Notes: generated by a model not told the origin, from the letters alone. A stretch of 32,000 bases of DNA from Thermosulfurimonas dismutans (GCF_001652585.1 NZ_LWLG01000013.1:30001-62000); one strand, 5' to 3'; positions 1,769-29,885 are shown, counted from the stretch's first letter. A program made the numbers and translations.

Positions 1769-1804
1769 AAGATCACCTCCTAGTTTCTATTCAAAACCTA
1801 TACC

Positions 1805-3619: not shown

Positions 3620-4250
3620 ACCGCTTGTTCTCCTACTTTTGCGACACGAGGAAACTGAAAATCCCAGAGGGATTCTCTATGGCCAAACGGATGTCCCACT
3701 GAGCCCCGTTGGGCGCAAAAAAACTGAAGAACTGGTAGAAAAACTCTCACGTTTTCAAATAAAGGCCGTTTACGGAAGCGATCTCTCCCGCTCAAGTTAC
3801 GGAGCCAAACTCCTTGCCGAAAGGTCTGGCGTGCCTCTAACTCTAACCCCTCTTTTAAGGGAGATCGATTTCGGAAAGTGGACCGGTCTCACTTTCAAGG
3901 AACTCTTGAAGATCCCGGAATTCCGGGAGCGATTGGAGCATCCCGAAAAAATAAAACCCCCCGGAGGAGAAAGTCTAAAGGATCTTTCCGAACGGGCTCT
4001 ACGGGTAGTATCCGAGATTAAATATCACTTCCCGGAAGGACTGGTGGTTATCTTCTCACACGGAGGCCTCAACCGTGTCTTGATAGCCCGTCTCCTGGAT
4101 ATCCCTCTTAATCGCTTTTTTGCCCTGGAACAACGTCCCGGGGCCATAAATCTCCTGGTCTTCTTCCCGGACTCCCCTCCCCTATTGGCCCTTTTCAACG
4201 CTCCGCCAGAGATAGACCTCCGGCCTTACCTTGAGTATTATGGAATATAG
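3606..4250 (+). CDS. histidine phosphatase family protein (PGAM / alpha-ribazole-phosphatase-like)
   Basis: N-terminal LLLLRHEETE (RHG-type catalytic His) and a later IFSHGGLNRV motif. Confidence 0.8.
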   Translation: MRSSKPLVLLLLRHEETENPRGILYGQTDVPLSPVGRKKTEELVEKLSRFQIKAVYGSDLSRSSYGAKLLAERSGVPLTLTPLLREIDFGKWTGLTFKELLKIPEFRERLEHPEKIKPPGGESLKDLSERALRVVSEIKYHFPEGLVVIFSHGGLNRVLIARLLDIPLNRFFALEQRPGAINLLVFFPDSPPLLALFNAPPEIDLRPYLEYYGI

Positions 4251-6554: not shown

Positions 6555-7946
6555 AGGATACCAGAACACCTTGAGTCGAAACCTTCCCCCTTCCTTCCCA
6601 ATAGCAAACAAGCCATGAAACAATGAAAATTCAAATTCCGAAGGTGATCGGCGCAGAGATAACAAAAATGCTATTTCTTGTACGCTTTTAGAAGGTCCAG
6701 CCTCATAACGATAAAGCCCCCATAAAAGTTTGAAGTACCGTTTTCCATCGGGAAACCGGTAATATTCAAGCAACTTTAGAAAAGGACCCCAATTTCTTTC
6801 AACACCTTCATCATAGAAAGGCAATATGGCCGGAAAGTAAAAAAGACTTTCTCCCTCGGAGCTCCTATATCGTACAAACAAAGGCCAGAAACGAATAAAA
6901 CTTTCTTTCTCCTCTCCCTCCCGATAAACCTTACGATATCTCGATAGGAGGAGAATCCTGGCGGAGGTTTCCTCTTCCTTCCCCCTCACAAGATGTTCTC
7001 CCTGGAAAATAGGCCAAAGAACAAAGTTACTCTCTTTATCCGAAGTCTTGCGGTATCCGAAAAGGGGAAAGATTCGGAATCCTTCTTTATCTTCGCCTTT
7101 CTGAATCTGAAAAATGGGCCAGGGAAGATCCCACTGTTTAAATCGCTGGTCAGTGGTCTCCAAATGCTGAAAGAAAGGCCAGAAATAGATAGTTTTGCGA
7201 TAACGAGGTCCTTCCTCTCTTACCCACAAAGGGAAAAACATCCTCTTGCGGGCCGGAGGACCATCATCGTAATACCTTTCTTCCGAGATAAAAAATGGCC
7301 AGAGGAAAAAAGAACGCCGAAATTGGCCCTTCCTTTCGCGATAACCCCATATAGGCCAGACTTTGAACCCCGAGAGTTCTGGACCACGGCTGTAGTTAAA
7401 GATGGGCCAGAGAATATTGGTGGATCGATTGGAACCCTCTCTGGCCTGGGAGTAGATCGGCCATAGTACGAATCTGATCTCGTCGTATCCGAAACGTTCC
7501 TTCATGCGGCCGTAAATAGGAAAGAGCCCCCAGTACTTCTCCCCGCTCTCAGTCCTTCCCCAGAAAACCGGAAAATAGGTGTGGTGGGCCCCCGAAGTTT
7601 TCTCTCCCTCTACCCAGTCGTAAGAAAATAGAGGGACCAAACGAAACCTTCGGAAATCTTTCTCTTTATGATAATGCCCGAGAGGAGAGAGAAAATAGAG
7701 ATCCTCGGTTTTTTCCTCTTTGTTGGTGACCTCCGTAAAGATGGGTCTTAAAGAGAAAGAATCCTCTTTGGTGTTACGATAACGATAAATAAAAGGCCCC
7801 AAGAGCTCAAGACGGGACCTTTCCTTTTCTTTGGCATAGAAAAGAAGGGGCCAGAGATTGATACGAAAACTATCTCCCCAACCGAGGCCCGGAAGCAGAA
7901 GACAGAGCAAAAGGCCCACAAAAACCGATCTCTTCATCTTGTCCAA
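6546..7946 (-). CDS. secreted repeat protein of unknown function (WP-repeat, outer-membrane-like), last gene of the mla operon
   Basis: Signal peptide MDKMKRSVFVGLLLCLLLPGLGWG. About 17 copies of a [LFV]-[WF]-P-[ILF]-[FYW] motif every ~20-28 aa (LWPLLFY, FPVFWG, LFPIYG, LWPIYS, LWPIFN, VWPIWG, LWPFF, FWPFFQ, PWPIFQ, IFPLFG, LWPIFQ, FWPLFV...). C-terminal ...VFWYPLF ends in Phe, as in OMP signatures. Confidence 0.7.
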   Translation of the reverse strand: MDKMKRSVFVGLLLCLLLPGLGWGDSFRINLWPLLFYAKEKERSRLELLGPFIYRYRNTKEDSFSLRPIFTEVTNKEEKTEDLYFLSPLGHYHKEKDFRRFRLVPLFSYDWVEGEKTSGAHHTYFPVFWGRTESGEKYWGLFPIYGRMKERFGYDEIRFVLWPIYSQAREGSNRSTNILWPIFNYSRGPELSGFKVWPIWGYRERKGQFRRSFFLWPFFISEERYYDDGPPARKRMFFPLWVREEGPRYRKTIYFWPFFQHLETTDQRFKQWDLPWPIFQIQKGEDKEGFRIFPLFGYRKTSDKESNFVLWPIFQGEHLVRGKEEETSARILLLSRYRKVYREGEEKESFIRFWPLFVRYRSSEGESLFYFPAILPFYDEGVERNWGPFLKLLEYYRFPDGKRYFKLLWGLYRYEAGPSKSVQEIAFLLSLRRSPSEFEFSLFHGLFAIGKEGGRFRLKVFWYPLF

Positions 7947-7952
7947 CTACCC

Positions 7953-9029
7953 TTATTGCATAGCTGCCCCGGCAATAGTGCCTAGGATAGAAATAGGTAC
8001 CTGTTCCTGAATCCCGGTGCTGGCTCTGTTCACGTTTTGAAGGGTCTTCTTGGCCTCGATGTAGAGAGAATCATCGTTGATGAGTTTACCCAAGGTACCT
8101 TCACCTCGTTCAACCTTCTTTACGATCCGATTCAGGGAGGCCGCCGTGTCCTTGAGCTCTTCATAAAGTTCGTCATCCGTCAAAAGCTTGCCAAGAGTAC
8201 CTTCCCCTTTGTTTATTCTATCCGCTACTTCTGCAATGGCCGTGGACCCCCTCTCCACGCTCTTCATGGCTTCCTTAAAGCTGAGGTAAAGCTCTTCATC
8301 CGTAAGGAGTTTGCCTAAAGTACCTTCTCCTCGCCGCATCTTTTCGGAGACCTCTTTTAAATTGGCCATAGTGACTTTAAAGTCTGCAAAGCTGCGTCTA
8401 ATATCTGTGTAAAGGGTCTCATCTACTAGGAGTTTACCCAAAGTGCCCTCACCCCGGACTACCTTTTCGCCCACCTCTTTAAAGGCCGCACTGGCATCCC
8501 TAAGATTAACGATCAATTCCTTGAGGTTATTACGTCCCTCCTCGCTTCCCAGAATCTCACTCAACCCCTCGGCCACCTTCTTCAAATCTTTGATAGCCGG
8601 GCCAACCTCCGCAATTACCTGACTGAGATCCATAGGACTTTGTGTGTGGGCTAGGGTAGCTCCAGCCACAAGAAATTCCGAAGATTTTCCCTGTCTAACC
8701 TCTACAAAACGATCTCCAAGAACCCCAGCCGTCCGGATAAGGGCCTCGGCGTCCCGGGTTAGCTTGAAGTCCTTGTAGATCAGGAGTTCGACCTTGGCCC
8801 GGCCTTCGGGAAGAAGCGAAATGGCCCCCACCTTTCCAATCTCTACCCCAGCCATCTCCACCCGGGCTCCCCGCACGAGTCCCGAAACGTTATCGAATAC
8901 CGCATAGACCGGATAAGTTCCTCGGGGAACCAAGGATTCTTCCGCAAGTTTGACTGTGAGATAAGCTAAAGCCAAAAGGGCCACCAAAACAAAAACGCCA
9001 ACTTTAATCTCCGTGCTTTTCTTGTACAT
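7953..9029 (-). CDS. mlaD: MlaD/MCE-domain protein with C-terminal repeat extension
   Basis: N-terminal TM anchor (KVGVFVLVALLALAYL), then an MCE domain (YPVYAVFDNVSGLVRGARVEMAGVEIGKV). Four C-terminal GEGTLGKL(L/I)xD(D/E)xLY repeats. Start taken at MYKKSTEIK (9029). Confidence 0.85.
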   Translation of the reverse strand: MYKKSTEIKVGVFVLVALLALAYLTVKLAEESLVPRGTYPVYAVFDNVSGLVRGARVEMAGVEIGKVGAISLLPEGRAKVELLIYKDFKLTRDAEALIRTAGVLGDRFVEVRQGKSSEFLVAGATLAHTQSPMDLSQVIAEVGPAIKDLKKVAEGLSEILGSEEGRNNLKELIVNLRDASAAFKEVGEKVVRGEGTLGKLLVDETLYTDIRRSFADFKVTMANLKEVSEKMRRGEGTLGKLLTDEELYLSFKEAMKSVERGSTAIAEVADRINKGEGTLGKLLTDDELYEELKDTAASLNRIVKKVERGEGTLGKLINDDSLYIEAKKTLQNVNRASTGIQEQVPISILGTIAGAAMQ

Positions 9030-9780
9030 CTCTACCCTCCTCGGGATAGCATCCCTCAAAAGCACTTTTCAAGAATTCCCTCACAAAGGGATGCTCGCTC
9101 TTTTTGATCTCTTCCGGAGTTCCCTCGGCTACCACCCTTCCTTCATTTAGGAACGCGATATAATCCGCCGCCATGAGAGCTATAGGGACATCGTGGGTAA
9201 CAACTACTCCGGTAAGACCATACTGCTGTTGAGTCTTCCGGATAAGTTTCATGGTGGCGACCTGAAGCATGGGATCAAGACCGGTAGTAGGCTCATCAAA
9301 AAGAATAATTTCGGGCTCAAGAGCCAAGGCCCGGGCAAGAGCCGCTCGTTTCTTCATACCTCCAGAAAGCTCAGCCGGATATTTGTTCCGGGCCTCAAGC
9401 AAACCCACTTGAGAAAGTTTCTCCTCCACCTTTCTTTGGATTTCTTTTTTGGAAAGCTTGGTATGTTCTATCAAAGGAAAAGCTACGTTTTCCGCCACCG
9501 TCATAGAATCAAAGAGAGCCCCCTCCTGGAAGAGGAATCCGAACTTACGCCTAAGTCTCTGCCACTCCTTTTCTGAAAGGTGGGTCACATCCTGACCGTC
9601 AATCAGGATTTGCCCTCGGTCCGGTTTGAGAAGACCTATGATATGTTTGAGGAGCACGCTCTTTCCGGTTCCGCTGCGGCCCATTATAAAAGTGAGCTTT
9701 CCCCGAGGGATCTCTAGATTGATCCCGTTTAGGACCGTCTGTTCCCCAAAACTCTTGTATAAATCGACCAATTTCACCAT
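9004..9780 (-). CDS. mlaF: ABC transporter ATP-binding protein (MlaF-like)
   Basis: Walker A GRSGTGKS, signature LSGGMKKR, Walker B ILFDEPTTGLD. Position between mlaE and mlaD. Confidence 0.9.
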   Translation of the reverse strand: MVKLVDLYKSFGEQTVLNGINLEIPRGKLTFIMGRSGTGKSVLLKHIIGLLKPDRGQILIDGQDVTHLSEKEWQRLRRKFGFLFQEGALFDSMTVAENVAFPLIEHTKLSKKEIQRKVEEKLSQVGLLEARNKYPAELSGGMKKRAALARALALEPEIILFDEPTTGLDPMLQVATMKLIRKTQQQYGLTGVVVTHDVPIALMAADYIAFLNEGRVVAEGTPEEIKKSEHPFVREFLKSAFEGCYPEEGRDVQEKHGD

Positions 9781-19766: not shown

Positions 19767-19997
19767 TTATAGAAGGTTATCAAGCTCATCAAGGCTTATT
19801 CCAGCGGCTTTAAGAATACATTTGAGGGTTTTGGGAGCTAGAATTTTTCCGCTATGAACCGGTATGGTAACCAAGACTTCTTTCTCGTCATGATAGAGAT
19901 GGTAGTGGCTTCCTTTGATTCGGACTATTCGGAAATCTGCTCGCTGTAAAGCTTTTACTAGGTCTTTCCCGGTGATCCTAGGCAGCTTTCTGCTCAA
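19767..19997 (-). CDS. hicA: type II toxin HicA (mRNA interferase)
   Basis: LPRITGKDLVKALQRADFRIVRIKGSHYHLYH...TIPVHSGKILAPKTLKCILKAAGIS is the YcfA/HicA signature. Confidence 0.85.
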   Translation of the reverse strand: MSRKLPRITGKDLVKALQRADFRIVRIKGSHYHLYHDEKEVLVTIPVHSGKILAPKTLKCILKAAGISLDELDNLL

Positions 19998-20196
19998 ATT
20001 CGACCTCTATTTCGGCCTGAAAAGACTTTCTGAGTTCTGTCAGGGCTTCAAGGTGTCCTTCGATGGCTTCTTTGGCATTTCCTATGGCTTCTTCGATAGT
20101 GTCTCCCTGAGTGACGCATCCCGGAAGATCCGGGACCGTGACCGTGAAGCCGCCTTCTTCATTGGGCTCGATCACAATTTTATAACGAAGTGTCAT
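19978..20196 (-). CDS. hicB: type II antitoxin HicB
   Basis: MTLRYKIVIEPNEEGGFTVTVPDLPGCVTQGDTIEEAIGNAKEAIEGHLEAL (HicB RNase-H-like fold signature). AGGAG lies 9 nt upstream of ATG 20196. Overlaps hicA by 20 nt. Confidence 0.85.
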   Translation of the reverse strand: MTLRYKIVIEPNEEGGFTVTVPDLPGCVTQGDTIEEAIGNAKEAIEGHLEALTELRKSFQAEIEVEFEQKAA

Positions 20197-20271
20197 CTTC
20201 TCTTCTCCTGTTTTTGGGATTCGTTTTATCATTTTAGATAAAATTCAGACGGATTTGAAGTTTGAATTTGC

Positions 20272-20472
20272 TCATCCGGTATCGATTTCCCGGAGCAAGT
20301 GCGCAGGCAGGTCAATAAAGGCAAAAAAATCTTTTGGGTAGAGGTAAGGTTCTCCACTTTCGTCTATGACTTTGAGGAGGCCGTATTCCTCTCCGAGGAC
20401 GGGATAAACTTTCCACTTTTCGAGAGAAAGCTCATAGCCCTGGTTTTTGATGCAAAGGGCGATCTTACTCAT
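20272..20472 (-). CDS. small hypothetical protein (66 aa)
   Basis: MSKIALCIKNQGYELSLEKWKVYPVLGEEYGLLKVIDESGEPYLYPKDFFAFIDLP. The ...VIDESGE.YLYP..FF motif recurs in small orphan proteins I have seen in accessory regions. No function known. Confidence 0.5.
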   Translation of the reverse strand: MSKIALCIKNQGYELSLEKWKVYPVLGEEYGLLKVIDESGEPYLYPKDFFAFIDLPAHLLREIDTG

Positions 20473-21116: not shown

Positions 21117-22948
21117 TTAGCCGCTCGAAAGCCTCTGAGTAAGCCTTTTCCACCAGCGAAAGCCTTTCTTCTCATCCTCCAGATCCAGAAAGTTCTTAAA
21201 TCTTTGGGCGTCCAAGAGGACTACCCCTTTGGTTTCCACCACCACGCCCGAGGGAAGATAGTTTACCAGCGAATCCTTATCCGGCCGGGAATGTTCCAAG
21301 AAGGCCCGGGTGATATCAAAGTACTCCCGACCGTCAATTTTTATAGTCTTTGCAAACAGTTCCTGGTGGGCGTGGTAAAAGGTAAACCAGGCCCGGCGGG
21401 CTCGCTCCCGATAGTAAAGATCTACAAGCCTTTCCTCCGTAAACCACCTCGGCCGATCCAGATCCAATTCCTCAAAATACTCCAGAAAGATTTCCCTGGC
21501 AGGTTTTAAGAAGTCTTCGGGGAAAAAGATTTCTTTCTGCCGGAATCTTCGTTCGAGTCTGAAAACGAAATCTCGGAAGAGGTCCTCTTCAAGACGGTAT
21601 TCCCGTTTTACTCTCTGAGGAAACGGGACGGAAAGTGGAAGATAGTAGATTCGGCGCATGACCTCCGGAGGGGCGTGGAAGTCCTTCTCGTTTCCGGTGG
21701 CCAGGAAACAGGCATGGGGGCCGGAGAAGGTGTTGGCCATCTCTTTGATGAACTGCACGCCTTCGTATGATCTTTCCGAAGTGGTGGTGAAGTACTGCCG
21801 TTTAACCTCGTCCACCAGGACGGGAAAGAGATTTCCGTTGGTAAGAAGAAGATAAATACCGCGCGAGTTGATTTTTCCGGCCGGGAATTTGGCCTTGGGA
21901 GTATAATGGTAATGAAGGCCGTGGTTTCCCAGAAGACGACTTATGGCACGCAGAAGAAAGGTCTTTCCGGAGCCGGCCGCCCCTGCGATATAAAGGAAGA
22001 TGGGTACTTCCGCTAGATACTCTTCCCCCAGAAGGGAAGCCTCTTTGCGAATGAGCCACAGAAAGGGCGACATGAAGGCGTAAAGGACGGCCTCGAAGGC
22101 AATGCGGCTAGCCCGCTCTTCGCCGGTAAGCTCGGAGTAGGAGCTCAAAAACTCATTAAGTCCCTGAAAAACCGTCTGGAGCCTCTCCAGAGGAAGCTCC
22201 CTTCCCAGAGGCTCGCCATTTCTGAAAAGTCCTTCCTCACGCCATTGGAATCTAGGCCTATCGTCCTCGAATTCCCTGGTCTCCTGGACGGTTCGCTTGA
22301 GCACCCGGAAAAGGGCCTCTTTTTTCGCATAAACCTCTCTGGGGGAGATAAGGATGGCCCCGGATTCCGTGCGCTTGGTTATGACCCGAAAAACCTCAAG
22401 GAGCTTTCTTTGTTCGCGGACGTTTTCCTCTTTTTCTTTGATCTTCTTTTCCATCTCTTCCAGAGAGTCTTTTAAGTGAGCTTCCACAAGGAGGGTTTTC
22501 ACCTCCCCGATACGGTCGGCAAAAAACTCCAGGGTTTCCTTGTCTTTGACCAATAAGGCTTCAGGGAGTTTCTTTTTCTTTTGGAGAAAATCTTTAGGGA
22601 ATAGGGGACGAGAAGATTTCTTTAAATGTCTTAGTACCTTTTCAAAGAGGGCAAATTTGGACGGATTCTCTTCTTCATCAAAGACTTCGAGGATCTCCCA
22701 TTGGCGTCCGCCAAGGGCTCTCTCGGTGAGGTTGGCGCTTCCCCAGATAAGCCTGCGCCCAGTCTCACCTTTTAAGAGAAAGATTTTGGCATGACTGGCT
22801 TCAAAGGGTACCAATACTTGGTAATCTCCTTTGGAGAGTTTTTCGAGAATTTGGGCGTTGGCCGAAACTTCTTCAAAGAGTCGGCGATTTTCCTCCGGTT
22901 CAAAAAAGGCCGCAAGTCCTCGCGCCGATTCCGGGAAACCTACTATGA
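21117..22948 (-). pseudogene. 3' part (607 codons) of an IS-interrupted PLD(HKD)-nuclease / P-loop NTPase gene
   Basis: HKD motif SHAKIFLLKGETGRRLIWGSANLTERAL (~22728-22793). Walker A IAGAAGSGKTFLL (~21960-21983). Walker B-like LFPVLVDEV (~21804-21827). Joins in frame to 24206-24433 once the IS and one target-duplication copy are removed. Confidence 0.8.
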
Positions 22949-24205
22949 GGGACTGTCCACCCGTTTGTGTAAATTTCATTATAGCCGGTCCTCGAAGAGA
23001 ATTGCTATCTGGCCGTATATCTGAGGCCAGCCCTTGATCTGGGCCCATTTCCGCTCAAGCTCCATAGCTGCCATGTACAAGCACTTTAACAGGGATTCTT
23101 CCGTCGGAAATACCCGTCTTCCGGCCGTAGCCTTACGAAATTTACTATTTACGCTCTCTATAATATTTGTCGTGTACATTACTCGCCTAATCTCCACAGG
23201 ATACCTGAAAAAGGCTGTAAGAGCCTCCCAGTTCGCCTGCCAGCTCTTCACTACGTGAGGGTATTTACTCCCCCATTTCTCCGAAAAAGCCTCCAGCTCC
23301 CTCTCCGCCGCCTCAAGCGTGGCCGCCCCATAGATCCTCTTGAGATCCCGAGCTATTTCACGTCTCTCTTTCCAAGCCACATACCTCAAGGAATTCCTGA
23401 TCTGATGCACTATGCATCTCTGGATATCCGCCCTCGGGTAAACCGCCCCTATGGCCTTCTCAAGCCCAGAAAGCCCATCCACGCTGAAAATGAAAACATC
23501 CTTCACCCCTCGAGACTTTAGGTCGTTCAATACACCAAGCCAAAATCGGCTCGATTCTGTCCCGTTTATCCAAAAACCTAAAATCTCCTTATAACCCTCA
23601 AGATCGAGTCCTATCGCCACATATACCGCCTTGTTCCTTACCTGCCCCTCCTCCCTGGCTTTATAGAAAATACAGTCTATCCAAATCAAAAAATACTTCT
23701 CCTTGAGCGGCCTCGAACGCCATTCCTCTATCTCCGGAAGTAGCCGATCCGTAATCTTGGAAATCAAAGAAGGACTTACGTCAAAACCATACATCTCCGA
23801 AAGGATCTCCTGGATATCCCTGGTACTCATACCTTTGGCGTAAAGGGCTACAATCTGGTTTTCGATCTCATCCAGCATAGTCTGGCGCTTCCTGACTATT
23901 TGAGGCTCAAATTCGCCCTTCCGATCCCTGGGAACCTTGATCTCCAGGGCCCCGGAAGAGGTCTTAATCGTCTTGGAACTGTAGCCGTTCCGGGAATTGT
24001 CGGTATCCGAGCGCTCGTATCTCCCGTAGCCCAAAAACTCCTCTAGTTCGGCCTCAAGGGCTTCCCTCAAAGTACGCCGGACAAGTTCCTTAATGGTGGC
24101 CTGCACTTCTTCGGGCTGAGGTGCCTTCTTGGCTCTTGCCATAGTGTCCACCCTCCTTTTGTAATTTGCTTATTCTAAAATCTCCACAGTTGGGTGGACA
24201 CTCCC
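22949..24205 (-). mobile_element. intact IS256-family insertion sequence (1257 bp)
   Basis: Imperfect terminal IRs GGGACTGTCCACCCGTTTGTGTAAATTT (22949 onward) and GGGAGTGTCCACCCAACTGTGGAGATTTT (complement from 24205). Flanked by a perfect 8-bp direct repeat TACTATGA (22941-22948 and 24206-24213). Confidence 0.88.
22979..24151 (-). CDS. IS256-family (mutator-type) transposase, 390 aa, intact
   Basis: NSRNGYSSKTIKTSSGALEIKVPRDRKGEFEPQIV..., DCIFYKAREEG..., SVDGLSGLEKAIGAVYPRADIQRCIVHQIRN, YTTNIIESVNSKFRK. These are the DDE and signature blocks of IS256 transposases. Confidence 0.95.
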   Translation of the reverse strand: MDTMARAKKAPQPEEVQATIKELVRRTLREALEAELEEFLGYGRYERSDTDNSRNGYSSKTIKTSSGALEIKVPRDRKGEFEPQIVRKRQTMLDEIENQIVALYAKGMSTRDIQEILSEMYGFDVSPSLISKITDRLLPEIEEWRSRPLKEKYFLIWIDCIFYKAREEGQVRNKAVYVAIGLDLEGYKEILGFWINGTESSRFWLGVLNDLKSRGVKDVFIFSVDGLSGLEKAIGAVYPRADIQRCIVHQIRNSLRYVAWKERREIARDLKRIYGAATLEAAERELEAFSEKWGSKYPHVVKSWQANWEALTAFFRYPVEIRRVMYTTNIIESVNSKFRKATAGRRVFPTEESLLKCLYMAAMELERKWAQIKGWPQIYGQIAILFEDRL

Positions 24206-24433
24206 TACTATGAAACACAATTTTTCGAAACCAAGATTCAGGAAGAACTCCAAGGCCTTTCTTATGGAGGCCGAATAGGTGAGCACCAGGGCCTCCTGAT
24301 AGCCTGCCACTAAACTCTGAGGGTCTCCAGAGAACTCCCGCCCTTTATATAAGATCTTGAGACGGCTCTCCGAAGTGTTTTCAAAAAGCCCCGCCATCCT
24401 TTTCATCTTGAGGTCTTTTTGTTGTTTTGACAA
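24206..24433 (-). pseudogene. 5' part (up to 76 codons) of the IS-interrupted PLD-nuclease / NTPase gene
   Basis: ...MAGLFENTSESRLKILYKGREFSGDPQSLVAGYQEALVLTYSASIRKALEFFLNLGFEKLCFIV, then it runs into the IS (GSVHPTVEILE* is IR-encoded). The start is ambiguous (TTG 24433, ATG 24406 or ATG 24397). Confidence 0.7.
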
Positions 24434-24455
24434 GGCGTCGCTTGGAGTTATATTC
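24427..24455 (+). promoter_or_regulatory. candidate sigma-70 promoter for the plus-strand operon
   Basis: TTGACA (24427-24432), a 16-nt spacer, then TATATT (24449-24454), ~24 nt upstream of ATG 24478, in the divergent intergenic region. The track's TTG start at 24427 is this -35 box. Confidence 0.35.
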
Positions 24456-24477
24456 AGAAAATCAACTCATAGAACCT

Positions 24478-25230
24478 ATGGCACTTGACGAAAAGATTCT
24501 CTATCGCATTTTTTCCGAGCTTTTTCCGGATGAGACGGTTGAAAATTGGGCCTTTCTCGGAGACGGCTTTACGCCTTTTGCGGACTGGAGGCGAGCCGCC
24601 GGCCCCAAAAGAGAGCTTTGCTTTCTTATCAAAACCTGCGATCCTCGAAAGTTTATCGTAAAAGCCGAGGATATTCTCGGTTCCCATTGCCGCATAGCCA
24701 AGCTCGATGAGGCCATGGGGGTCTATTCTTTCTGGGTAGGCTGGTGCGAGACGCCGATCTTTGCGGTCTCCTTTTTCGTGCCGTTTTCGGACCCGTGGCG
24801 GAAAAAGCTCTTTGAGAGGATTTTTTACGGAGATAAGGAAAAATTTCACTATTGCAAACTATTCAATCATGGGGTGCGTCTCCTTCCGGACGAAGACTTT
24901 GGGGTTCTTTCCGTGGCCCTCGGAAGACAGGTAAGACGCCCACTTGATGGATTTTACGCTCTGGTGCTGGCCTCAAATGACCGAGCCACGGCCGAGAGAA
25001 TCGAGGAGCTTGCGGGGATTCTTAAAATTTTAGAAAAGTTGAAAATCTTGGAAAAGAAGGCTTCTTTATTCAATTTAGCCAAAAACAGAATGGAAAGTTA
25101 CAAGGATCGTGGTATCAATCGGTTTTTTTATTTTTGGGACTATGAGGAGCGCTGGTTACGGAGCGCGAAAGCCGAAGAAGTAAGAATGTTAAAGCGTATG
25201 AAAAGCTCCCTGCTTTTCAAAGACGACTAG
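24478..25230 (+). CDS. hypothetical protein (250 aa), first gene of the operon; no motif recognised
   Basis: MALDEKILYRIFSELFPDETVENWAFLGDGF... with a helical, charged C-terminal third (ERIEELAGILKILEKLKILEKKASLF...). Same strand as the downstream MPE gene and 5 nt from it. Confidence 0.65.
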   Translation: MALDEKILYRIFSELFPDETVENWAFLGDGFTPFADWRRAAGPKRELCFLIKTCDPRKFIVKAEDILGSHCRIAKLDEAMGVYSFWVGWCETPIFAVSFFVPFSDPWRKKLFERIFYGDKEKFHYCKLFNHGVRLLPDEDFGVLSVALGRQVRRPLDGFYALVLASNDRATAERIEELAGILKILEKLKILEKKASLFNLAKNRMESYKDRGINRFFYFWDYEERWLRSAKAEEVRMLKRMKSSLLFKDD

Positions 25231-25235
25231 GAGTT

Positions 25236-25958
25236 ATGCTAGCCTTTGCCGCGGACATTCACGGCGAGTGGCGCAGGCTTTACGAGAACCTCCCTCAGGA
25301 GGTGGAAGCGGTTTTCATCTGCGGGGACGCTGAAATGGTTCGCTCTGAGGAGGATTTGGCGCTTATACCGGCTCCCAAGAAGCATCTAAAGCTCGGAGAT
25401 TTTCATTTCTTTTGGGAGCGGGGCGAGGTTCCCGTTCCGACCTATGTCCTTCTTGGAAACCACGAGCCGTACCTGTGGCTCTGGGAGCACGAAAAAAACG
25501 GACCGACGGAGGTCATTAAGAACCTATGGGTGCTGGCACGGTCGGGAGTTATTGAGCTTTGCGGGCTAAAGATTGCTTATCTTGGCAGGGTTTTTGCCCC
25601 TACTACCTATTTTGAAGGGCGAGTATGGAATCCAGAGAAAGACAAGAGGTCCAAAAAGTCGAAGCTTGCGAGCCGTTTTACACCGGAAGATGTAGAAAGA
25701 CTCATTTCAGAGGCGGCTAAAGTGGAAGATGTCGATGTACTCGCTCTCCACGAAAATCCGAATTATTGCAAGGACGCACGAGGAAGAGAAGTCTATCGGA
25801 ATATTGTTGAGCTTGTGAGACCGAAACTCATCATTTGCGGACATATGCATCGTCTTTTACTGGAAACTTTTTCTGGTGTTCCTATTTTTGGGCTTCCATA
25901 TGGGATTCCAGTCACTTGGCAAAAAATCGAGTGTTCGATGGAAAACACAAATCTTTGA
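25236..25958 (+). CDS. calcineurin-like metallophosphoesterase, Dbr1-like motif architecture (240 aa)
   Basis: All five MPE motifs: ADIHGEW, ICGDAEMVRSEEDLALIPAPKKH, LGNHEPY, LALHENP, CGHMH. Confidence 0.85.
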   Translation: MLAFAADIHGEWRRLYENLPQEVEAVFICGDAEMVRSEEDLALIPAPKKHLKLGDFHFFWERGEVPVPTYVLLGNHEPYLWLWEHEKNGPTEVIKNLWVLARSGVIELCGLKIAYLGRVFAPTTYFEGRVWNPEKDKRSKKSKLASRFTPEDVERLISEAAKVEDVDVLALHENPNYCKDARGREVYRNIVELVRPKLIICGHMHRLLLETFSGVPIFGLPYGIPVTWQKIECSMENTNL

Positions 25959-26010
25959 GCGCTAATTCGACCTCGATGTTTCGTCCAAGCCGATAAGTTT
26001 TCAATAGGCT

Positions 26011-26880
26011 ATGCATTTCGCAGTCATCGGTGATGTTCACGGGCGATTTGAGTTGCTGGCAAGGGTGCTTGCGGTCCTGCGCGACCGCTACGGGGTAGAA
26101 CTCGCCTTTCAGGTGGGCGACTTGGCCTTTCTATCCTCAAGCGACCCCAAGTACCTCAAGGCCCTGAAGATGGCCGGGCCGCAAACTCCGCCCCTCATTT
26201 ACGACGTTTTTGATGATGAAGTCCAAGCCATAAGGTTCCTCCACGGCGACATCGAGCTTCCCGTCCCGGTCTACTTCGTAGGCGGAAATCACGAGGACTG
26301 GCCGTACTTAGACTTCGTGGAAGAGAAGATGCGCGAGCAGGGGATAGCACCGCCCTACGAGATTGCGCCGAACCTCTTTTTCCTGGGAAAGGCGAGCGTG
26401 GTGGAGGTGTCCGAAATGCGGGTCGTCACCCTTTCAGGGATCTACGACCGCCTCAAGTGGGAGCTCTGCGTGACCTCACCGCGGAAGCTCTACTACCACA
26501 ACCAAGAAGACGAAGAGGCGCTTCTCTTCCATGCGCCCGGGGCGGACCTTTTCATCGCGCACGAGTGGCCGGTGAAGCTCGCTTCGGGCGCAACCTGGGA
26601 GGAGGCCATTTACGCAGCCGTCGGCTCTCCCACGGTGGACCGGCTCATCCACCACTTTCGGCCCGCGCTTTCGTTCCACGGGCACATGCACCGCTACGCG
26701 CAGGGCATTCGCGGCCCCATGGGAGAGCGGCCCACGAAGTGGGTGGGCCTGGACATGCTCATCGTGGACCACTACCACAGAGTCCGCAATGTGGCCCTTT
26801 GCGAGTTCGAGGGGCCGGGTGCGGTGAGGCTCCTTTTTACCGCGGAGGCGAGGAAACTCTTAAAGGACGCTTCCGCTTAG
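26011..26880 (+). CDS. calcineurin-like metallophosphoesterase, Dbr1-like motif architecture (289 aa), GC-rich
   Basis: IGDVHGRF, VGDLAF, GGNHEDWPYL, FIAHEWP, VGSPTVDRLIHHFRPALSFHGHMH. Clearly higher GC than the preceding paralogue; long spurious ORFs in the other frames are a symptom of this. Confidence 0.85.
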   Translation: MHFAVIGDVHGRFELLARVLAVLRDRYGVELAFQVGDLAFLSSSDPKYLKALKMAGPQTPPLIYDVFDDEVQAIRFLHGDIELPVPVYFVGGNHEDWPYLDFVEEKMREQGIAPPYEIAPNLFFLGKASVVEVSEMRVVTLSGIYDRLKWELCVTSPRKLYYHNQEDEEALLFHAPGADLFIAHEWPVKLASGATWEEAIYAAVGSPTVDRLIHHFRPALSFHGHMHRYAQGIRGPMGERPTKWVGLDMLIVDHYHRVRNVALCEFEGPGAVRLLFTAEARKLLKDASA

Positions 26881-26889
26881 GAGAGCACG

Positions 26890-27297
26890 ATGTCAACCCG
26901 AGACCTTTTGCGGTTTGCAAGAGAAGTGGAAAAGAGCCGTCCCCGACTGAGGCGGGTCCTCAAGGTGGAGGAGCTTTATACCGAGTACCTCACGCGTCTT
27001 CCCCGCCTTCCGGTGGTGCGGGCCGGTTTCGAGGTCCTCAACGAATTTAATCTCCGCATCGTTTCCCCGAAAGCGCTTATTGCGGTGCTCCTCTGTCTTC
27101 CCGAGCGCTCAATGGACCTCTCTGCTTTCGTGCGGGTGCTTCCCGAAGTCTTTCCAGAGGATCTTTCCAGAGCCCTGCAAGTCCTTTCGGGGGACCCCGG
27201 GGTGCTTGCAGTGGTTCTCTACGGTTCAAGGGCTCGAGGAGATGCTCGGCCGGATTCGGACTGGGGTGGTATTCAATTTTGTGTGTCTGGAGAGTAA
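26890..27297 (+). pseudogene. Pol-beta-superfamily (MNT-like) nucleotidyltransferase with a ~110-aa N-terminal extension, truncated inside the catalytic motif by an IS
   Basis: ...VLAVVLYGSRARGDARPDSD|WGGIQFCVSGE*. The G-S motif and first Asp are present. The expected DxD continuation is replaced at 27263 by the IS inverted repeat. AGGAG lies 7 nt upstream of the ATG. Confidence 0.65.
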
Positions 27298-27300
27298 ATA

Positions 27301-27328
27301 AGGAAGGCCCCTGGTGAAGGGCCTTCCT
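27301..27328 (+). promoter_or_regulatory. 10-bp stem-loop in the IS leader
   Basis: AGGAAGGCCC-ctggtgaa-GGGCCTTCCT, 38 nt inside the left IS end and upstream of the transposase SD. The position fits a hairpin that blocks read-through transcription into an IS. Confidence 0.3.
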
Positions 27329-27373
27329 AAAAGAAAAGGGGAAAAGAAGAAACTCATCAAGGAGGTAACCGCT

Positions 27374-28587
27374 ATGAAACAGAATAATCCCTTCACCGAA
27401 GAATTTCTAGAACAACTTAAGGACTGGGAAAACTTTGTCCCCAGAGAGTTCCTCTCCTGGCTCTTTAAAAACCTGGGCCTGGCACACCGCGCCATCCACC
27501 TCAAGAAACATCCCCATGACAAGGGAAACGGCTTCTACGAAAGAACACTACAGATAGGATACAGATAGGAAGTCTTCCTTTTCCCGTAGAGGTGGCCCGT
27601 ACACGGTATGAAAAGTTCCGGCCCTTTTTCCTCCCTCCAGGACACCTCCGGTATCTCCCCGAAGATTACCTCCACCTGACCTCCTCCCTTCTCCTGGGCT
27701 CCCGATCCATCGATAGCGCTTCCCGGGCCCTAAAAAATATGGGCCTCCCCATAAATCAAGATTACCTGGAAGAAGTGATCGAAGAGTTCGTGACCTATCT
27801 CGAGGACCTCAACTCCTGCCCGCTGCCTTCAGATTTGGCCGCCCTCATCCTGGATGCCAAACATATCCACCAGAAGCTCAAAGACGGACAGAAGGTCATG
27901 GGACATACCACCTATGTGGCCCTGGGCCTTACCCTGGATGGGCAGAAGAAGATCCTAGGCCTCTACACCTTCGAGGGCTCAGAGAGCCTCGAGGGCTGGA
28001 AGAAGACCCTGGAGAAGCTTCTTCAGCGGGGGCTGAGGGGGATCCTTATCGTGATCCATGATGACTTCCCTGGACTCCTGGGCCTCACCTCAAGCCTTTT
28101 TCCTCAGGCGGATATTCAACTTTGTACGGTGCACCTTTGCCGGAATGCAAGAAAACACCTCTCCCAGGAGAACTATCGCACCTTTAAGAGCTACTTCAAA
28201 AGCATCAAAGCAAGCCTCAGCTATGAGGAAGGCTTGAGGCTTTTTGATTCTCTTCTCAAGGAGCTTCCACAGGAGAACACCTTTGTGAAGCTTCTTGCAA
28301 AGAAGAAAGAGCACTATCTGGCCTTTTTGAAGTATCCGGAGGAGGTGAGACCGCTGTTTTCCTCGACCAATCTGGCCGAGGGGATCAACCGGAAGATAGA
28401 AGAGGCGGAGAGGGCCTGTGGGGGTTATTTCCATTCGGAACGGGACCGGGACTTCAGGTATGGGGTGCTAGCTAAGGAATTGCTAGAGGGCAGATGGAGG
28501 AGGGTCAACTGGAAATACCAGCGGGTGGCTCACCTCCTGAGATATCTTTTCGAGGAAAGGTTTAAAAATGAGGACCTCTTGGTCTAG
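27374..28587 (+). pseudogene. IS256-family transposase, frameshifted by an 11-bp tandem duplication
   Basis: ATG 27374 with AAGGAGGT upstream. ...GNGFYERTLQIG is followed by TACAGATAGGA duplicated (27549-27559 and 27560-27570). Removing one copy restores ...LQIGSLPFPVEVARTRYEKF... into the 331-aa ORF (DAKHIH..., HDDFPGL, QLCTVHLCRN, SSTNLAEGINRK). Confidence 0.85.
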
Positions 28588-28612
28588 ACACAGAAAACTT
28601 GACAAGCGCCCC

Positions 28613-28795
28613 ATTTGGCCTCAAGGGAGAGAGCGCAAGCCTCTATCCATTGTTTCCGGGAAAACTTGGCTAACCCCTCTATCAGCTTGTCCAGCGCCCC
28701 TTCCTGGAGCTTTTCCAGACGCCCCAGGTTAGCCACGATCCTCTGGCGAACTTTTTCGCCTCACTAGCCCTTCCCTGCTGTCAAACTTGGGTTAG
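28613..28795 (-). pseudogene. IS1634-like element 5' end fragment, copy 1 (internally deleted, cut by the IS256-family element)
   Basis: Minus strand encodes ...VRQRIVANLGRLEKLQEGALDKLIEGLAKFSRKQWIEACALSLEAKW, then hits the IS IR. Shares a ~71-bp block (3 mismatches) and the terminal ...CAAGTTTGACAG... with copy 2. Confidence 0.6.
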
Positions 28796-28840
28796 ACTTT
28801 TTTCTAGAATTCTATTTAGTGGAAGGGTTGGGAGAAGAAA

Positions 28841-29044
28841 ATGAAGATCTACGAAACGGTAGTCACGCCGGATCGAAAAATAGTCGTGGAAAATATTTCT
28901 TTGATGCCGGGAGAAAAGGTCAAGTTGCTGATACTCAGGGAAAAGTCTGGCCGGAAGGGATATCCGCTCAGGGGAAGAAGAGTAGAATATATTGATCCTT
29001 TCGAAAGCGTGGCGGAAGATGAATGGGAAGCCCTAAAATGGTAG
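28841..29044 (+). CDS. putative type II antitoxin (VapB-position)
   Basis: 67 aa ending ...YIDPFESVAEDEWEALKW. Its stop overlaps the PIN gene start (ATGGTAG). Confidence 0.55.
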   Translation: MKIYETVVTPDRKIVVENISLMPGEKVKLLILREKSGRKGYPLRGRRVEYIDPFESVAEDEWEALKW

Positions 29045-29502
29045 TTCTTGACACCCATGTCTGGGTCTGGTGGGTTCATTCTCCAGAAAAATTAACCTCC
29101 AAACAAATTAGTGTCATTCAGGCTAATGAAAACGATTTAATAGGAATCTCGGCCATTTCCTGCTGGGAGATAGCGAAGTTGGTGGAACGGGGACGGTTGC
29201 GGCTTCCCTGCACCCTGGAGGAATGGTTCGATCTGGCTTTTTCCTATCCGGGGATAGAGATAATCCCTCTGACCCCTGAAATCGCCATAGAATCGACCAG
29301 GCTACCTGGAAACTTTCACAGAGATCCGGCGGATCAGCTGATTGTGGCCACAGCTCGGGTCCTGAATTGTCCGCTTGTCCAGCGCCCCTTCCTTAAGCTT
29401 TTCCAGACGCCCCAGGTTAGCCACGATCCTCTGGCGCACTTTTCCACTAACCCGCTTGCCCTCCACGATATAGAGATAGGTTTTTGGAGGTGGAGACGGT
29501 AG
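29038..29502 (+). pseudogene. vapC: PIN-domain toxin (VapC-like), 3' end replaced by IS1634-like sequence
   Basis: MVVLDTHVWVWW (Asp1), ISCWEIAKL (Glu), RDPADQLIVATARVLNCPLV (Asp3). From ~29373 the frame reads through antisense IS sequence (QRPFLKLFQTPQ...), so the last conserved acidic residue is missing. Confidence 0.75.
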
Positions 29503-29608
29503 AACAGAGGCAGGGAAGGGGAAAAAAGGGGGCATTTTAGGGGTATTTTGGGCCGAAAATACTCACTTCAGATTCACCAGCCCTTTCCGACTGTCAAACT
29601 TGAGTTTG
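29373..29608 (-). pseudogene. IS1634-like element 5' end fragment, copy 2 (IR plus first ~45 codons of the transposase)
   Basis: Minus strand encodes MPPFFPFPASVLPSPPPKTYLYIVEGKRVSGKVRQRIVANLGRLEKLKEGALDK. The Y.Y.VE..R..GKVRQR..A.LGRL pattern is the IS1634-family transposase N-terminus as I recall it. Confidence 0.6.
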
Positions 29609-29885
29609 AGGTATGTTGCGAAGAGATTGAGCCAACGCGAGAGGAGAGCTTTTCGTCAGAGGGCTAGACAGCAGCGATTTTGAAGCTAAGATCAAGATGT
29701 TGATGTTTCAAAGCGGACTTTCCCTGTTGGGTGATTTGTTGTATTGCACGAAAGATAAGTATACCAGGGGGACACCTTTTCTTTTAGAATCTCTTAGATT
29801 GGTTGAAATAATGTTAGAAACACTGGTAATTAAGAAGAGTCAAAGTGAAAGAAGTTGAAAAAAATACAACAGAGGAGGTAAAATT

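What the first reader, a model, noticed from the sequence alone, without database searches (positions are those of the whole stretch)
21117..27297. Candidate undescribed system: IS-split PLD-nuclease/P-loop NTPase gene facing an operon of an orphan protein, two Dbr1-like phosphoesterases and a Pol-beta nucleotidyltransferase
**What the sequence shows.** The locus sits inside an IS- and toxin-antitoxin-rich accessory region.
- A ~683-codon gene on the minus strand fuses a single-HKD PLD nuclease domain (SHAKIFLLKG...GSANLT) to a P-loop NTPase (GAAGSGKT / LVDEV) through a long charged helical linker.
- It is arranged head-to-head with a plus-strand operon, with about 45-80 bp between the starts depending on start choice, and a TTGACA-N16-TATATT promoter lies between them.
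- The operon encodes a 250-aa protein with no motif I recognise, two divergent metallophosphoesterases, and a nucleotidyltransferase with an unusual ~110-aa N-terminal extension.

**Inference.** Nuclease plus NTPase plus NTase plus phosphodiesterases is the kind of parts list seen in phage-defence or abortive-infection systems: signal or modification synthesis, its hydrolysis, and an ATP-driven nuclease effector. I cannot match this combination to any named system (it is not Mokosh, DISARM, Lamassu, Gabija, Septu, CBASS or a retron as I know them). Both the putative effector and the NTase are knocked out by IS elements. That is what one expects for a costly or toxic accessory system in decay.
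Basis: partly seen in the sequence, partly recalled or inferred. Interest (0 to 1): 0.85.

Follow-up and report, generated by a model that had tools for sequence, protein, structure and literature searches.

The report
IS-broken PLD nuclease–SF3 helicase gene
The five genes are real but are not one system. A stand-alone nuclease–helicase gene of an uncharacterised family, broken by a jumping gene, sits by chance next to a rare, decaying cluster of phosphoesterase and nucleotidyltransferase genes.

Summary
Deleting 22941-24205 (an IS256-family element with an 8-bp target duplication) restores a 674-codon gene. It aligns without gaps to an intact 675-aa orthologue at 88% identity.

This gene belongs to a conserved family, labelled Pfam PF27394 'Aq_aa27', with 368 representatives at 50% clustering. 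Its architecture is an N-terminal single-HKD PLD nuclease (closest fold: NgoAVII R-protein) followed by a D5/P4-type SF3 helicase.

The proposed five-gene system is not supported.
- In 11 independent loci the PLD-SF3 gene has no conserved neighbour. None of these loci carries the orphan, phosphoesterase or NTase genes.
- The plus-strand cluster recurs in only one other contig, where the PLD gene is absent and the cluster also carries lesions.
- The two homology tracts abut at 24409|24410, 3 nt upstream of the PLD start codon.

The two phosphoesterases are indeed closest to Dbr1 among solved structures. The NTase is MNT-like and is truncated by a second, defective IS.

Best reading: the locus is a mosaic accessory island. 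It holds a dead copy of a stand-alone nuclease-NTPase, probably an ATP-driven anti-foreign-DNA enzyme with no named match, beside an unrelated lineage-specific cluster of unknown function.

The parts
21117..22940 (-). 3' part (codons 68-674 plus the stop codon) of the PLD-SF3 gene. It holds the HKD motif (22731-22793), Walker A (21960-21983), Walker B (21807-21824), motif C N484 (21690-21692), R497 (21651-21653) and the C-terminal domain (21120-21584).
22949..24205 (-). IS256/Mutator-family insertion sequence, 1257 bp. It has an intact 390-aa transposase (22979-24151) and is flanked by the 8-bp target duplication TCATAGTA (22941-22948 and 24206-24213).
24206..24406 (-). 5' part (codons 1-67) of the PLD-SF3 gene. 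The conserved start is ATG 24406. Homology to the orthologue in L001 ends at 24409.
24410..24477 (+). Leader region of the plus-strand cluster, shared with L008. It contains the promoter-like TTGACA-N16-TATATT at 24427-24454. Position 24409|24410 is the junction between the two homology tracts.
24478..25230 (+). W_267/250-aa orphan gene; the likely start is ATG 24478. There is no hit in any family library, one homologue in 5.8 billion clusters, dN/dS 0.53 against L008, and an uninformative AF2 model (pLDDT 45).
25236..25958 (+). Metallophosphoesterase 1 (240 aa). All MPE metal-binding motifs are present. The closest solved relative is the Dbr1 catalytic domain.
26011..26880 (+). Metallophosphoesterase 2 (289 aa), 25% identical to MPE1 and also closest to Dbr1. 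G+C is 0.60 in 26001-27000, the kilobase bin that covers MPE2, against 0.47 in 25001-26000, the bin that covers MPE1.
26890..27261 (+). 5' fragment (about 124 codons) of an MNT-type nucleotidyltransferase with an N-terminal extension of about 95 aa. It is cut right after the GS...DSDW motif. The full-length relative in L008 is 349 aa once a 1-nt frameshift is repaired.
27262..28613 (+). Second Mutator/IS256-type element, defective. Its transposase is split (27314-27568 and 27592-28587), its terminal inverted repeats are imperfect, and it has no target duplication. It is associated with loss of the NTase 3' part.

Best explanation
The locus is a mosaic stretch of an accessory island in Thermosulfurimonas dismutans. 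It holds two unrelated modules that happen to abut.

**Module 1 (21117-24406, minus strand).** This is a recently IS-inactivated copy of a stand-alone gene of the Aq_aa27 family. Its parts, from N to C terminus, are:
- a single-HKD PLD nuclease domain of the BfiI/NgoAVII type;
- a helical linker;
- a D5/P4-type SF3 (AAA+) helicase module;
- a C-terminal domain of about 150 aa.

Inferred mechanism: the SF3 module oligomerises into a ring and uses ATP to load onto or translocate along DNA. Pairs of single-HKD domains come together to form a complete PLD active site and cut the DNA through a phosphohistidine intermediate. The protein would thus be a one-polypeptide nuclease-NTPase directed at foreign DNA. 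This is analogous to SauUSI, NgoAVII/CglI and Azaca, but with an SF3 motor instead of an SF2 motor.

**Module 2 (24410-27261, plus strand).** This is a lineage-restricted, internally mosaic gene cluster: an orphan gene, two Dbr1-like metallophosphoesterase paralogues, and an MNT-like NTase. Its function is unknown. It is inactivated here by IS-associated loss of the NTase 3' part.

**Shown versus inferred.** Shown: the architecture, the conserved catalytic residues, purifying selection, the solitary distribution, and the mosaic junction. Inferred: DNA as substrate, ring formation, the defence role, and any activity of module 2.
For: **Repair and selection.**
- The rebuilt ORF aligns without gaps to the intact orthologue.
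- dN/dS is 0.096 against L001, and the IS has a perfect target duplication and an intact transposase. The inactivation is therefore recent.

**A real family.**
- There are 368 representatives at E<=1e-3 and 56 at E<=1e-30. Those at E<=1e-30 are mostly full-length, about 670-720 aa.
- H, K, GSxN, Walker A, Walker B, N484 and R497 are invariant.

**Structure.**
- The AF2 model has pLDDT 83.6.
- Foldseek PDB top hits for the C-terminal part are ASFV PrimPol, vaccinia D5, AAV Rep40, SV40 LTag, E1 and the SaPI5 primase-helicase.
- For the N-terminal part the hit is the NgoAVII R-protein 4rct (rmsd 4.6 Å over 163 columns). SauUSI is also listed.
- BFVD hits are all D5/P4 primase-helicases.

**Solitary distribution.**
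- In 11 loci the only recurring neighbour is a DNA methyltransferase, in 2 of them.
- Some settings resemble defence islands. L005 has a methyltransferase, ResIII, HD, ParE and DUF2283 genes. pATS1 has a helicase, a methyltransferase and a DEAD helicase.
- On plasmids a separate replication initiator is annotated.
- No phage record carries the gene.

**Independence of the two modules.**

**Background.** PLD nucleases coupled to NTPases are established in restriction and defence: NgoAVII/CglI (PMC4267653, PMC4267654), SauUSI (PMC7913695), and Azaca and Mokosh (bioRxiv 10.1101/2025.07.10.664194).
Against: - No member of the family has been tested, so a defence role rests on analogy and on a few suggestive neighbourhoods. 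Several loci sit among housekeeping genes.
- The Asp of the canonical HxK(x)4D motif is not conserved.
- SF3 helicases are classically replication proteins of viruses and plasmids, so a replication or maintenance role cannot be excluded.
- The sample of contexts is small: 11 loci for module 1, and one other copy of module 2 as a cluster.
- The orthologue loci come from different organisms. Absence of co-occurrence there does not strictly exclude a local functional interaction in T. dismutans.
Confidence: 0.55

Rival explanations
1. All five genes form one undescribed defence or abortive-infection system: the NTase makes a signal or modification, the Dbr1-like phosphoesterases remove it, and the PLD-NTPase is the effector. 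The system is now decaying.
For: - The genes lie head to head with a 71-bp gap and a promoter-like site between them.
- They sit in a TA- and IS-rich island.
- Both the PLD gene and the NTase are hit by IS elements.
- The parts list resembles signalling defence systems.
Against: - There is no co-occurrence in 10 other PLD-SF3 loci, in the L008 copy of the cluster, or in the MPE2 orthologue and distant-homologue loci.
- The homology tracts abut at 24409|24410.
- The PLD-SF3 gene is under strong purifying selection as a solitary gene elsewhere.
Confidence: 0.04
2. The PLD-SF3 protein is a replication or maintenance factor of a mobile element. It would be a functional analogue of the HUH-SF3 Rep proteins or the P4/D5 primase-helicases, with the PLD domain nicking DNA at an origin through a covalent phosphohistidine intermediate and the SF3 ring unwinding it.
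For: - All structural neighbours of the C-terminal two thirds are viral or plasmid replicative SF3 proteins.
- Family members occur on plasmids of Aquifex, Athalassotoga, Arcobacter and lactobacilli. In the Arcobacter plasmid the gene is next to parAB.
- The unit of homology between genomes is essentially the ORF alone.
Against: - The plasmids carry their own annotated replication initiators.
- Chromosomal copies are solitary, without integrase, origin-like repeats or other element genes.
- None is found in 50,697 phage records.
Confidence: 0.2
3. The plus-strand cluster (orphan, two Dbr1-like MPEs, MNT-like NTase) is on its own a small novel system. It would act on 2'-5' or other unusual phosphodiester or nucleotidyl linkages, independently of the PLD-SF3 gene.
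For: - The spacing is operon-like: gaps of 5, 52 and 9 bp.
- The promoter-like site is shared with L008.
- dN/dS is 0.14-0.28 for the MPEs and the NTase.
- Dbr1 is the closest solved relative of both MPEs.
- There are weak PADLOC candidate hits, PDC-S09 and PDC-S10.
Against: - The cluster is seen in only two closely related contigs.
- L008 carries an in-frame stop in MPE1, a frameshift in the NTase and a duplication at the 5' end of the orphan gene.
- MPE2 orthologues and distant homologues have other neighbours and no NTase.
- The cluster is compositionally and phylogenetically mosaic.
- The orphan gene shows relaxed constraint (dN/dS 0.53).
Confidence: 0.12

Closest known systems
SauUSI (type IV ATP-dependent restriction endonuclease, PDB 7clg; PMC7913695)
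   Same: Both are single polypeptides with an N-terminal single-HKD PLD nuclease that must pair to form an active site, an NTP-driven DNA motor and a C-terminal domain. Both are stand-alone genes without a cognate methyltransferase. SauUSI is listed by Foldseek at rank 27.
   Different: SauUSI has an SF2 helicase-like motor and an SRA-like reader of 5mC/5hmC. The protein here has a D5/P4-type SF3 AAA+ module, expected to form a ring, and an unrelated C-terminal domain. There is no sequence-level homology outside the PLD core.
NgoAVII / CglI ATP-dependent restriction enzymes (R-protein PDB 4rct; PMC4267653, PMC4267654, PMC5861437)
   Same: The N-terminal PLD domain is the best structural match for residues of about 16-180 (E 1e-3, rmsd 4.6 Å over 163 columns). 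Pfam RE_NgoFVII hits occur in family members. In both cases a PLD nuclease depends on a separate NTPase activity.
Azaca (ZacABC) and Mokosh, the PLD class of 'nuclease-NTPase' anti-phage systems (bioRxiv 10.1101/2025.07.10.664194)
   Same: Both use a PLD-like nuclease together with a P-loop NTPase. In the alignment, 41 of 44 family members hit the PADLOC ZacB model.
   Different: The ZacB hit covers only about 60 residues around the HKD motif of a 586-position model. Azaca needs three proteins and an SF2 helicase. Mokosh uses an SF1 helicase with a C-terminal PLD domain. No ZacA, ZacC or MkoA equivalents are present.
D5/P4-type primase-helicases (vaccinia D5 8apl, ASFV PrimPol 8iqh, SaPI5 7ola)
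   Same: Residues of about 300-675 have the same overall module: helices preceding an SF3 AAA+ core with Walker A, Walker B, a motif C Asn and an Arg, followed by a C-terminal domain.
   Different: The N-terminal catalytic domain is a PLD nuclease rather than an AEP or Toprim primase. There is no viral or satellite context.
RNA lariat debranching enzyme Dbr1 (PDB 4peh)
   Same: The catalytic metallophosphoesterase domain of Dbr1 is the closest solved relative of both W_240 and W_289 (E 7e-12 and 3e-8). Eukaryotic Dbr1 proteins appear among the remote hits.
   Different: Neither protein has the Dbr1 C-terminal domain (PF05011). They are 240-289 aa rather than 350 aa or more, and the first metal motif is DxH. 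No branched-RNA source such as a retron or a group II intron was seen nearby.
MntA / MNT minimal nucleotidyltransferases of HEPN-MNT (type VII) toxin-antitoxin modules (PDB 7ae2)
   Same: The NTase core motif YGSRARGD...DSDWD is closest to MNT antitoxins (NCBIfam MntA E 1e-5; 7ae2 E 1.5e-3).
   Different: All scores are below the curated cut-offs. The full-length relative (349 aa) has an N-terminal extension of about 95 aa and a C-terminal region of about 200 aa with no family match. No HEPN partner is present.

Membership tests
PLD-superfamily nuclease (HKD) | HxK(x)4D(x)6GSxN motif | tested here: inconclusive
   H117, K119, G134, S135 and N137 are invariant in 44 sequences, but the Asp position is variable (it is K in the window). 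Pfam PLDc_2 gives E 4e-4, below the gathering score.
PLD-superfamily nuclease (HKD) | PLD fold similar to known nuclease members | tested here: met
   The AF2 model has pLDDT of about 85-95 across this domain. Foldseek hits the NgoAVII R-protein 4rct with prob 1.0 and rmsd 4.6 Å over 163 columns.
PLD-superfamily nuclease (HKD) | Nuclease activity through a phosphohistidine intermediate, with two HKD motifs brought together by dimerisation | not testable with these tools
   This needs biochemistry.
SF3 helicase (AAA+; D5/P4 type) | Walker A, Walker B, motif C (Asn) and an arginine finger, in that order | tested here: met
   G387/G392/K393, D444/E445, N484 and R497 are invariant.
SF3 helicase (AAA+; D5/P4 type) | Structural similarity to solved SF3 helicases | tested here: met
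   The top PDB hits are 8iqh, 8apl, 9rm5, 1n25, 2v9p and 7ola (E 5e-6 to 2e-3). All top BFVD hits are primase-helicases.
SF3 helicase (AAA+; D5/P4 type) | Hexamer formation and ATP-dependent unwinding or translocation | not testable with these tools
   No multimer prediction or assay was available.
Pfam PF27394 (Aq_aa27) | Match to the family model | tested here: met
   The precomputed Pfam label is on P0001-P0005 and on all the contexts looked up. The local Pfam copy lacks the model.
Azaca (ZacABC) | Full-length ZacB together with ZacA (DUF6361) and the ZacC SF2 helicase in one operon | tested here: not met
   The ZacB hit is local only, residues 117-188 against model positions 298-357 of 586. 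No ZacA or ZacC is present in the window.
Mokosh | SF1 RNA-helicase domain (MkoA/MkoC) with a PLD nuclease | tested here: not met
   There is no PADLOC Mko hit. The NTPase is SF3, not SF1.
   Zero of 10 other PLD-SF3 loci, and none of the other MPE loci examined, carry the combination. L008 carries the cluster without the PLD gene.
Dbr1 lariat debranching enzyme | MPE catalytic domain most similar to Dbr1 | tested here: met
   4peh gives E 7e-12 (W_240) and 3e-8 (W_289).
Dbr1 lariat debranching enzyme | Dbr1 C-terminal domain (PF05011) and 2'-5' debranching activity | tested here: not met
   There is no PF05011 hit, and the proteins end soon after the GHxH motif. The activity itself cannot be tested with these tools.
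HEPN-MNT type VII toxin-antitoxin | MNT NTase scoring above the family cut-off, next to a HEPN toxin | tested here: not met
   MntA scores 25 bits against a cut-off of 60. No HEPN gene is present in the window or in L008.

The most novel reading that the evidence does not exclude
Aq_aa27 proteins are a new class of single-polypeptide anti-foreign-DNA enzymes. A ring-forming D5/P4-type SF3 helicase, the motor normally used by viruses and plasmids to replicate, has been joined to a PLD nuclease in the position where the primase normally sits. This would give an ATP-driven nuclease that works alone. The window holds a freshly IS-killed copy.

A still more speculative reading, not excluded, is that the protein mediates its own gene-sized mobility or acts as a PLD-type Rep.
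Probability: 0.35. Interest if true: 0.55.

Novelty: new variant of a known kind. Interest (0 to 1): 0.38.

Why it matters
If the stand-alone reading is right, the useful product of this finding is not a five-gene system. It is a defined, testable protein family of about 370 clusters on chromosomes and plasmids of thermophiles, Campylobacterota, lactobacilli and haloarchaea.

The family would add an SF3-motor branch to the nuclease-NTPase class of defence enzymes, whose described members include SF1 and SF2 helicases among other P-loop NTPases. It would also show a viral replication helicase module reused against foreign DNA.

The negative result matters too. It shows how an IS-rich island can place unrelated modules head to head around a plausible promoter and so mimic an operon-level 'system'.

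Tried and rejected
- **Alignment-based locus search.** The search for related loci with the PLD-SF3 alignments A1 and A2 failed because no stretch was conserved enough. I used per-protein context look-ups and plasmid tblastn instead.
- **Genome-contig scan with MPE2.** The alignment A3 returned only one close relative and eight distant single-MPE loci.
- **Metagenome scan with the repaired L008 NTase.** It found only L008 itself.
- **AF2 of the orphan W_267.** With two sequences the model had pLDDT 45, so no fold search was attempted.
- **PDB sequence search with the PLD-SF3 protein.** It gave only spurious ubiquitin matches in the low-complexity linker.
- **Literature search for 'Aq_aa27'.** It matched only DOI strings. 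Searching 'debranching + metallophosphoesterase + anti-phage' found nothing.
- **Considered and rejected:**
  - Membership in Azaca, Mokosh or DISARM: only local HKD-motif hits.
  - The PLD-SF3 protein as the plasmid Rep: the plasmids have their own Rep.
  - The Arcobacter plasmid's metallophosphoesterase 7 kb away as a conserved partner: it has no similarity to W_240 or W_289.
  - W_267 as an NTase-fold protein: this rested on motif resemblance only, with no supporting hit.

Full report

Yes. The ORF map matches the finding.
- On the minus strand there is a 643-codon ORF (21117-23048), a 390-aa transposase ORF (22979-24151) and an 87-codon ORF (24170-24433).
- On the plus strand there are ORFs of 267, 240, 289 and 135 codons (24427-27297), separated by gaps of 5, 52 and 9 bp.

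The element inside the minus-strand gene is an IS256/Mutator-family IS.
- Its transposase matches PF00872 at E 9e-125.
- Its inverted repeats lie at 22948-22983 and 24171-24206.
- A perfect 8-bp target duplication, TCATAGTA, flanks it at 22941-22948 and 24206-24213.

Read from the conserved ATG at 24406, it encodes 674 aa. These align end to end without a single gap to an intact 675-aa protein from a metagenome-assembled genome (P0002, 88.3% identity) and to P0003 (72%). NCBI's own annotation of this gene, P0001, identifies the organism as Thermosulfurimonas dismutans.

The promoter-like TTGACA-N16-TATATT is at 24427-24454. The two conserved ATG starts, 24406 and 24478, are 71 bp apart.

The NTase ORF is cut immediately after its GS...DSDW motif by a second Mutator-type element (27262-28613).
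- This element has imperfect terminal repeats, a split transposase and no target duplication.
- The remaining ~225 codons of the NTase, known from a relative, are nowhere in the window.

**2. What is the minus-strand gene?**

Single-sequence Pfam hits are weak: PLDc_2 at E 4e-4, and AAA_16/22 at the Walker A. The family itself is solid.
- An exhaustive phmmer search of 1.84 billion representatives found 368 proteins at E<=1e-3 and 56 at E<=1e-30. Those at E<=1e-30 are mostly 670-720 aa and matched along most of their length.
- Public precomputed annotation labels them Pfam PF27394 'Aq_aa27'. The name implies that the founding member is aq_aa27 of the Aquifex aeolicus plasmid ece1, and that plasmid gives a partial tblastn match.
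- In an alignment of 44 members, the invariant residues are H117, K119, G134, S135 and N137 (HxK...GSxN); G387, G392 and K393 (Walker A); D444 and E445 (Walker B); N484; and R497.
- The Asp of the textbook HxK(x)4D motif is not conserved.

An AlphaFold2 model built on that alignment has mean pLDDT 83.6.
- Against the PDB, the C-terminal two thirds match SF3 helicases: ASFV PrimPol 8iqh (E 5e-6), vaccinia D5 8apl, AAV Rep40, SV40 large T, papillomavirus E1 and the SaPI5 primase-helicase 7ola.
- The N-terminal domain matches the PLD domain of the NgoAVII R-protein, 4rct (prob 1.0, rmsd 4.6 Å over 163 columns). SauUSI is also listed.
- Against viral models, every top hit is a D5/P4-type primase-helicase.

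The architecture is therefore a PLD nuclease, a helical linker, a D5/P4-type SF3 module and a C-terminal domain. The nuclease sits in the slot where primase-helicases carry their primase.

**3. Do the five genes belong together?**

No. I examined the neighbourhoods of ten other family members:
- P0002 (L001-L004);
- P0003 (L005, L006);
- P0005 (L007);
- P0007 (L009);
- P0008 (L010);
- P0013 (L011);
- P0010 (L028);
- P0016 (L030);
- the plasmid copies in Athalassotoga pATS1 (L025) and an Arcobacter plasmid (L026).

None of these loci contains a relative of the orphan, of either phosphoesterase or of the NTase (tblastn).

An all-against-all comparison of every ORF within 5 kb across the 11 loci found a single recurring neighbour. 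This is a DNA methyltransferase shared by L005 and pATS1.

DNA similarity between the window and L001 covers 21121-24409 only, that is, the gene and nothing else.

The converse also holds.
- The orphan W_267 has one homologue in 5.8 billion clusters. It lies on a JGI metagenome contig (L008).
- L008 is 91% identical to the window from 24410 to 26819, and has IS debris rather than a PLD gene upstream.
- The two homology tracts thus meet at 24409|24410, 3 nt upstream of the PLD start codon. The head-to-head arrangement is a junction specific to this genome.

**4. Is the plus-strand cluster itself a unit?**

Only weakly.
- MPE2 orthologues at 77% identity (Thermodesulfatator MAG, L014-L016) and at 48% (L013) have different neighbours and no NTase. 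More distant homologues (L017-L020) are single genes.
- L008 carries lesions in three of the four genes: a 10-11-nt duplication near the orphan's start, an in-frame stop in MPE1 and a 1-nt deletion in the NTase. Sequencing error cannot be excluded.
- Within the cluster, G+C jumps from 0.47 to 0.60.
- Synonymous divergence from L008 jumps from about 0.1 (orphan, MPE1) to 0.43-0.62 (MPE2, NTase). The cluster is itself a recombinational mosaic.
- dN/dS is 0.17 for MPE1, 0.14 for MPE2, 0.28 for the NTase N-terminus and 0.53 for the orphan.

- The Dbr1 catalytic domain (4peh) is the closest solved relative of both enzymes, at E 7e-12 and 3e-8.
- The Dbr1 C-terminal domain is absent, however.

The NTase core is closest to MNT antitoxins but scores below all curated cut-offs. 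The repaired L008 relative is 349 aa, with unassigned N- and C-terminal regions. The orphan gave no family hit and an unusable structure model.

**5. Most likely mechanism.**

Shown:
- The PLD-SF3 gene evolved under strong purifying selection as a solitary gene (dN/dS 0.096 against L001).
- It was inactivated recently: the IS has a perfect target duplication and an intact transposase.

Inferred from established knowledge of the families:
- Single-HKD nucleases such as Nuc, BfiI, the NgoAVII R-protein and SauUSI pair two domains to form one active site, and they cut through a phosphohistidine intermediate.
- SF3 helicases act as ATP-driven hexameric rings on DNA.
- The protein is therefore best read as a self-contained ATP-dependent nuclease.

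Precedents for coupling a PLD nuclease to an NTPase for restriction or anti-phage defence:
- NgoAVII and CglI (PMC4267653, PMC4267654, PMC5861437);
- SauUSI (PMC7913695);
- the PLD class of nuclease-NTPase systems, Azaca and Mokosh (bioRxiv 10.1101/2025.07.10.664194).

Some neighbourhoods look like defence islands (L005, pATS1 and the TA- and IS-rich window itself). Others are housekeeping.

The main rival is a replication or maintenance role. The SF3 ancestry and plasmid carriage favour it. Against it, the plasmids have their own annotated initiators, no phage copies exist, and the chromosomal copies are bare.

I put about 0.55 on the mosaic plus stand-alone nuclease-NTPase reading as a whole. 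I put about 0.9 on its 'not one system' component.

**6. Comparison with what is known, and novelty.**

PADLOC finds no full-length match. ZacB is hit by 41 of 44 members, but only over about 60 residues at the HKD motif. Membership in Azaca, Mokosh, DISARM or an R-M type is not met.

The family is catalogued in Pfam but, as far as the searched literature shows, uncharacterised. If it is a defence enzyme, it is a new variant (SF3 motor, single polypeptide) of the known nuclease-NTPase kind. The five-gene system as proposed is not a real unit.

**7. Verdict.**

- Observation: confirmed.
- Interpretation: partly supported. The parts are right; the system is not.
- Interest: moderate. The window itself holds a dead copy, and the family-level lead needs experiments.

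Noticed in passing
window 28682-28755 / 29370-29443 and 28761-28796 / 29574-29609: Two pairs of direct repeats (95% and 83% identical) bracket the antitoxin/PIN pair at 28841-29502. The last ~40 codons of the PIN ORF run into the repeat. A minus-strand ORF at 29302-29535 over the repeat looks like the N-terminus of a transposase but has no Pfam hit. This may be IS debris that duplicated around, or captured, the TA pair.
   Followed up: partly
window 24409|24410: Homology to the PLD-SF3 orthologue locus (L001) ends at 24409. Homology to the only other copy of the plus-strand cluster (L008) begins at 24410, 3 nt upstream of the PLD start codon. The PLD gene therefore has no ancestral upstream region of its own here. 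In L001 its start overlaps (ATGA) an unrelated 168-aa gene.
   Followed up: yes
window 25001-27000; L008 3712-6710: The 'operon' is itself mosaic. G+C is 0.47 over MPE1 and 0.60 over MPE2. Synonymous divergence from L008 is about 0.1 for the orphan and MPE1 but 0.43-0.62 for MPE2 and the NTase. NTase protein identity is only 53%.
   Followed up: partly
L008 7474-14324: The metagenome contig with the second copy of the cluster also carries a MazE/PIN pair, a third MPE paralogue whose start overlaps the end of the PIN gene, and a remnant of a fourth MPE (8877-9079). Downstream on the minus strand are an AAA protein, a DUF2357 protein and a 716-aa P-loop protein, which looks like an McrBC-like or other defence cluster.
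   Followed up: no
L014/L016 2882-3769 (Thermodesulfatator sp. MAG): The 295-aa ORF immediately upstream of the 77%-identical MPE2 orthologue has VLIDVDV and GGVHFVVG motifs reminiscent of archaeo-eukaryotic primase-polymerases. It has no Pfam hit. A PrimPol-like gene paired with a Dbr1-like MPE might deserve a look.
   Followed up: no
L005 2081-8487 and L025 (Athalassotoga pATS1) 1-7645: In 2 of 11 PLD-SF3 loci, a related N6/N4 DNA methyltransferase with large helicase or ResIII genes lies divergently upstream of the PLD-SF3 gene. This is the only recurring neighbour found. It could mean an occasional R-M-like partnership, or simply a shared defence-island setting.
   Followed up: partly
L028 4690-5763: In one lineage the PLD-SF3 gene is followed, at gaps of 1-2 bp, by two genes of 196 and 160 aa with no family match and no relatives in the other loci. 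These may be lineage-specific accessory subunits.
   Followed up: no
window 27314-28587: The transposase of the second Mutator-type element is split into an 84-codon ORF and a 331-codon ORF (27314-27568 and 27592-28587). The element has no target duplication. It is a defective IS, and the NTase 3' part was probably lost through an IS-mediated deletion.
   Followed up: partly
window 19767-20472: A HicA/HicB toxin-antitoxin pair (19767-20232) and an unassigned 66-aa ORF (20272-20472) lie just downstream of the PLD-SF3 gene. The island is bounded by a radical-SAM/B12 gene and a Kdo-kinase gene on one side and by GDP-mannose 4,6-dehydratase on the other.
   Followed up: partly
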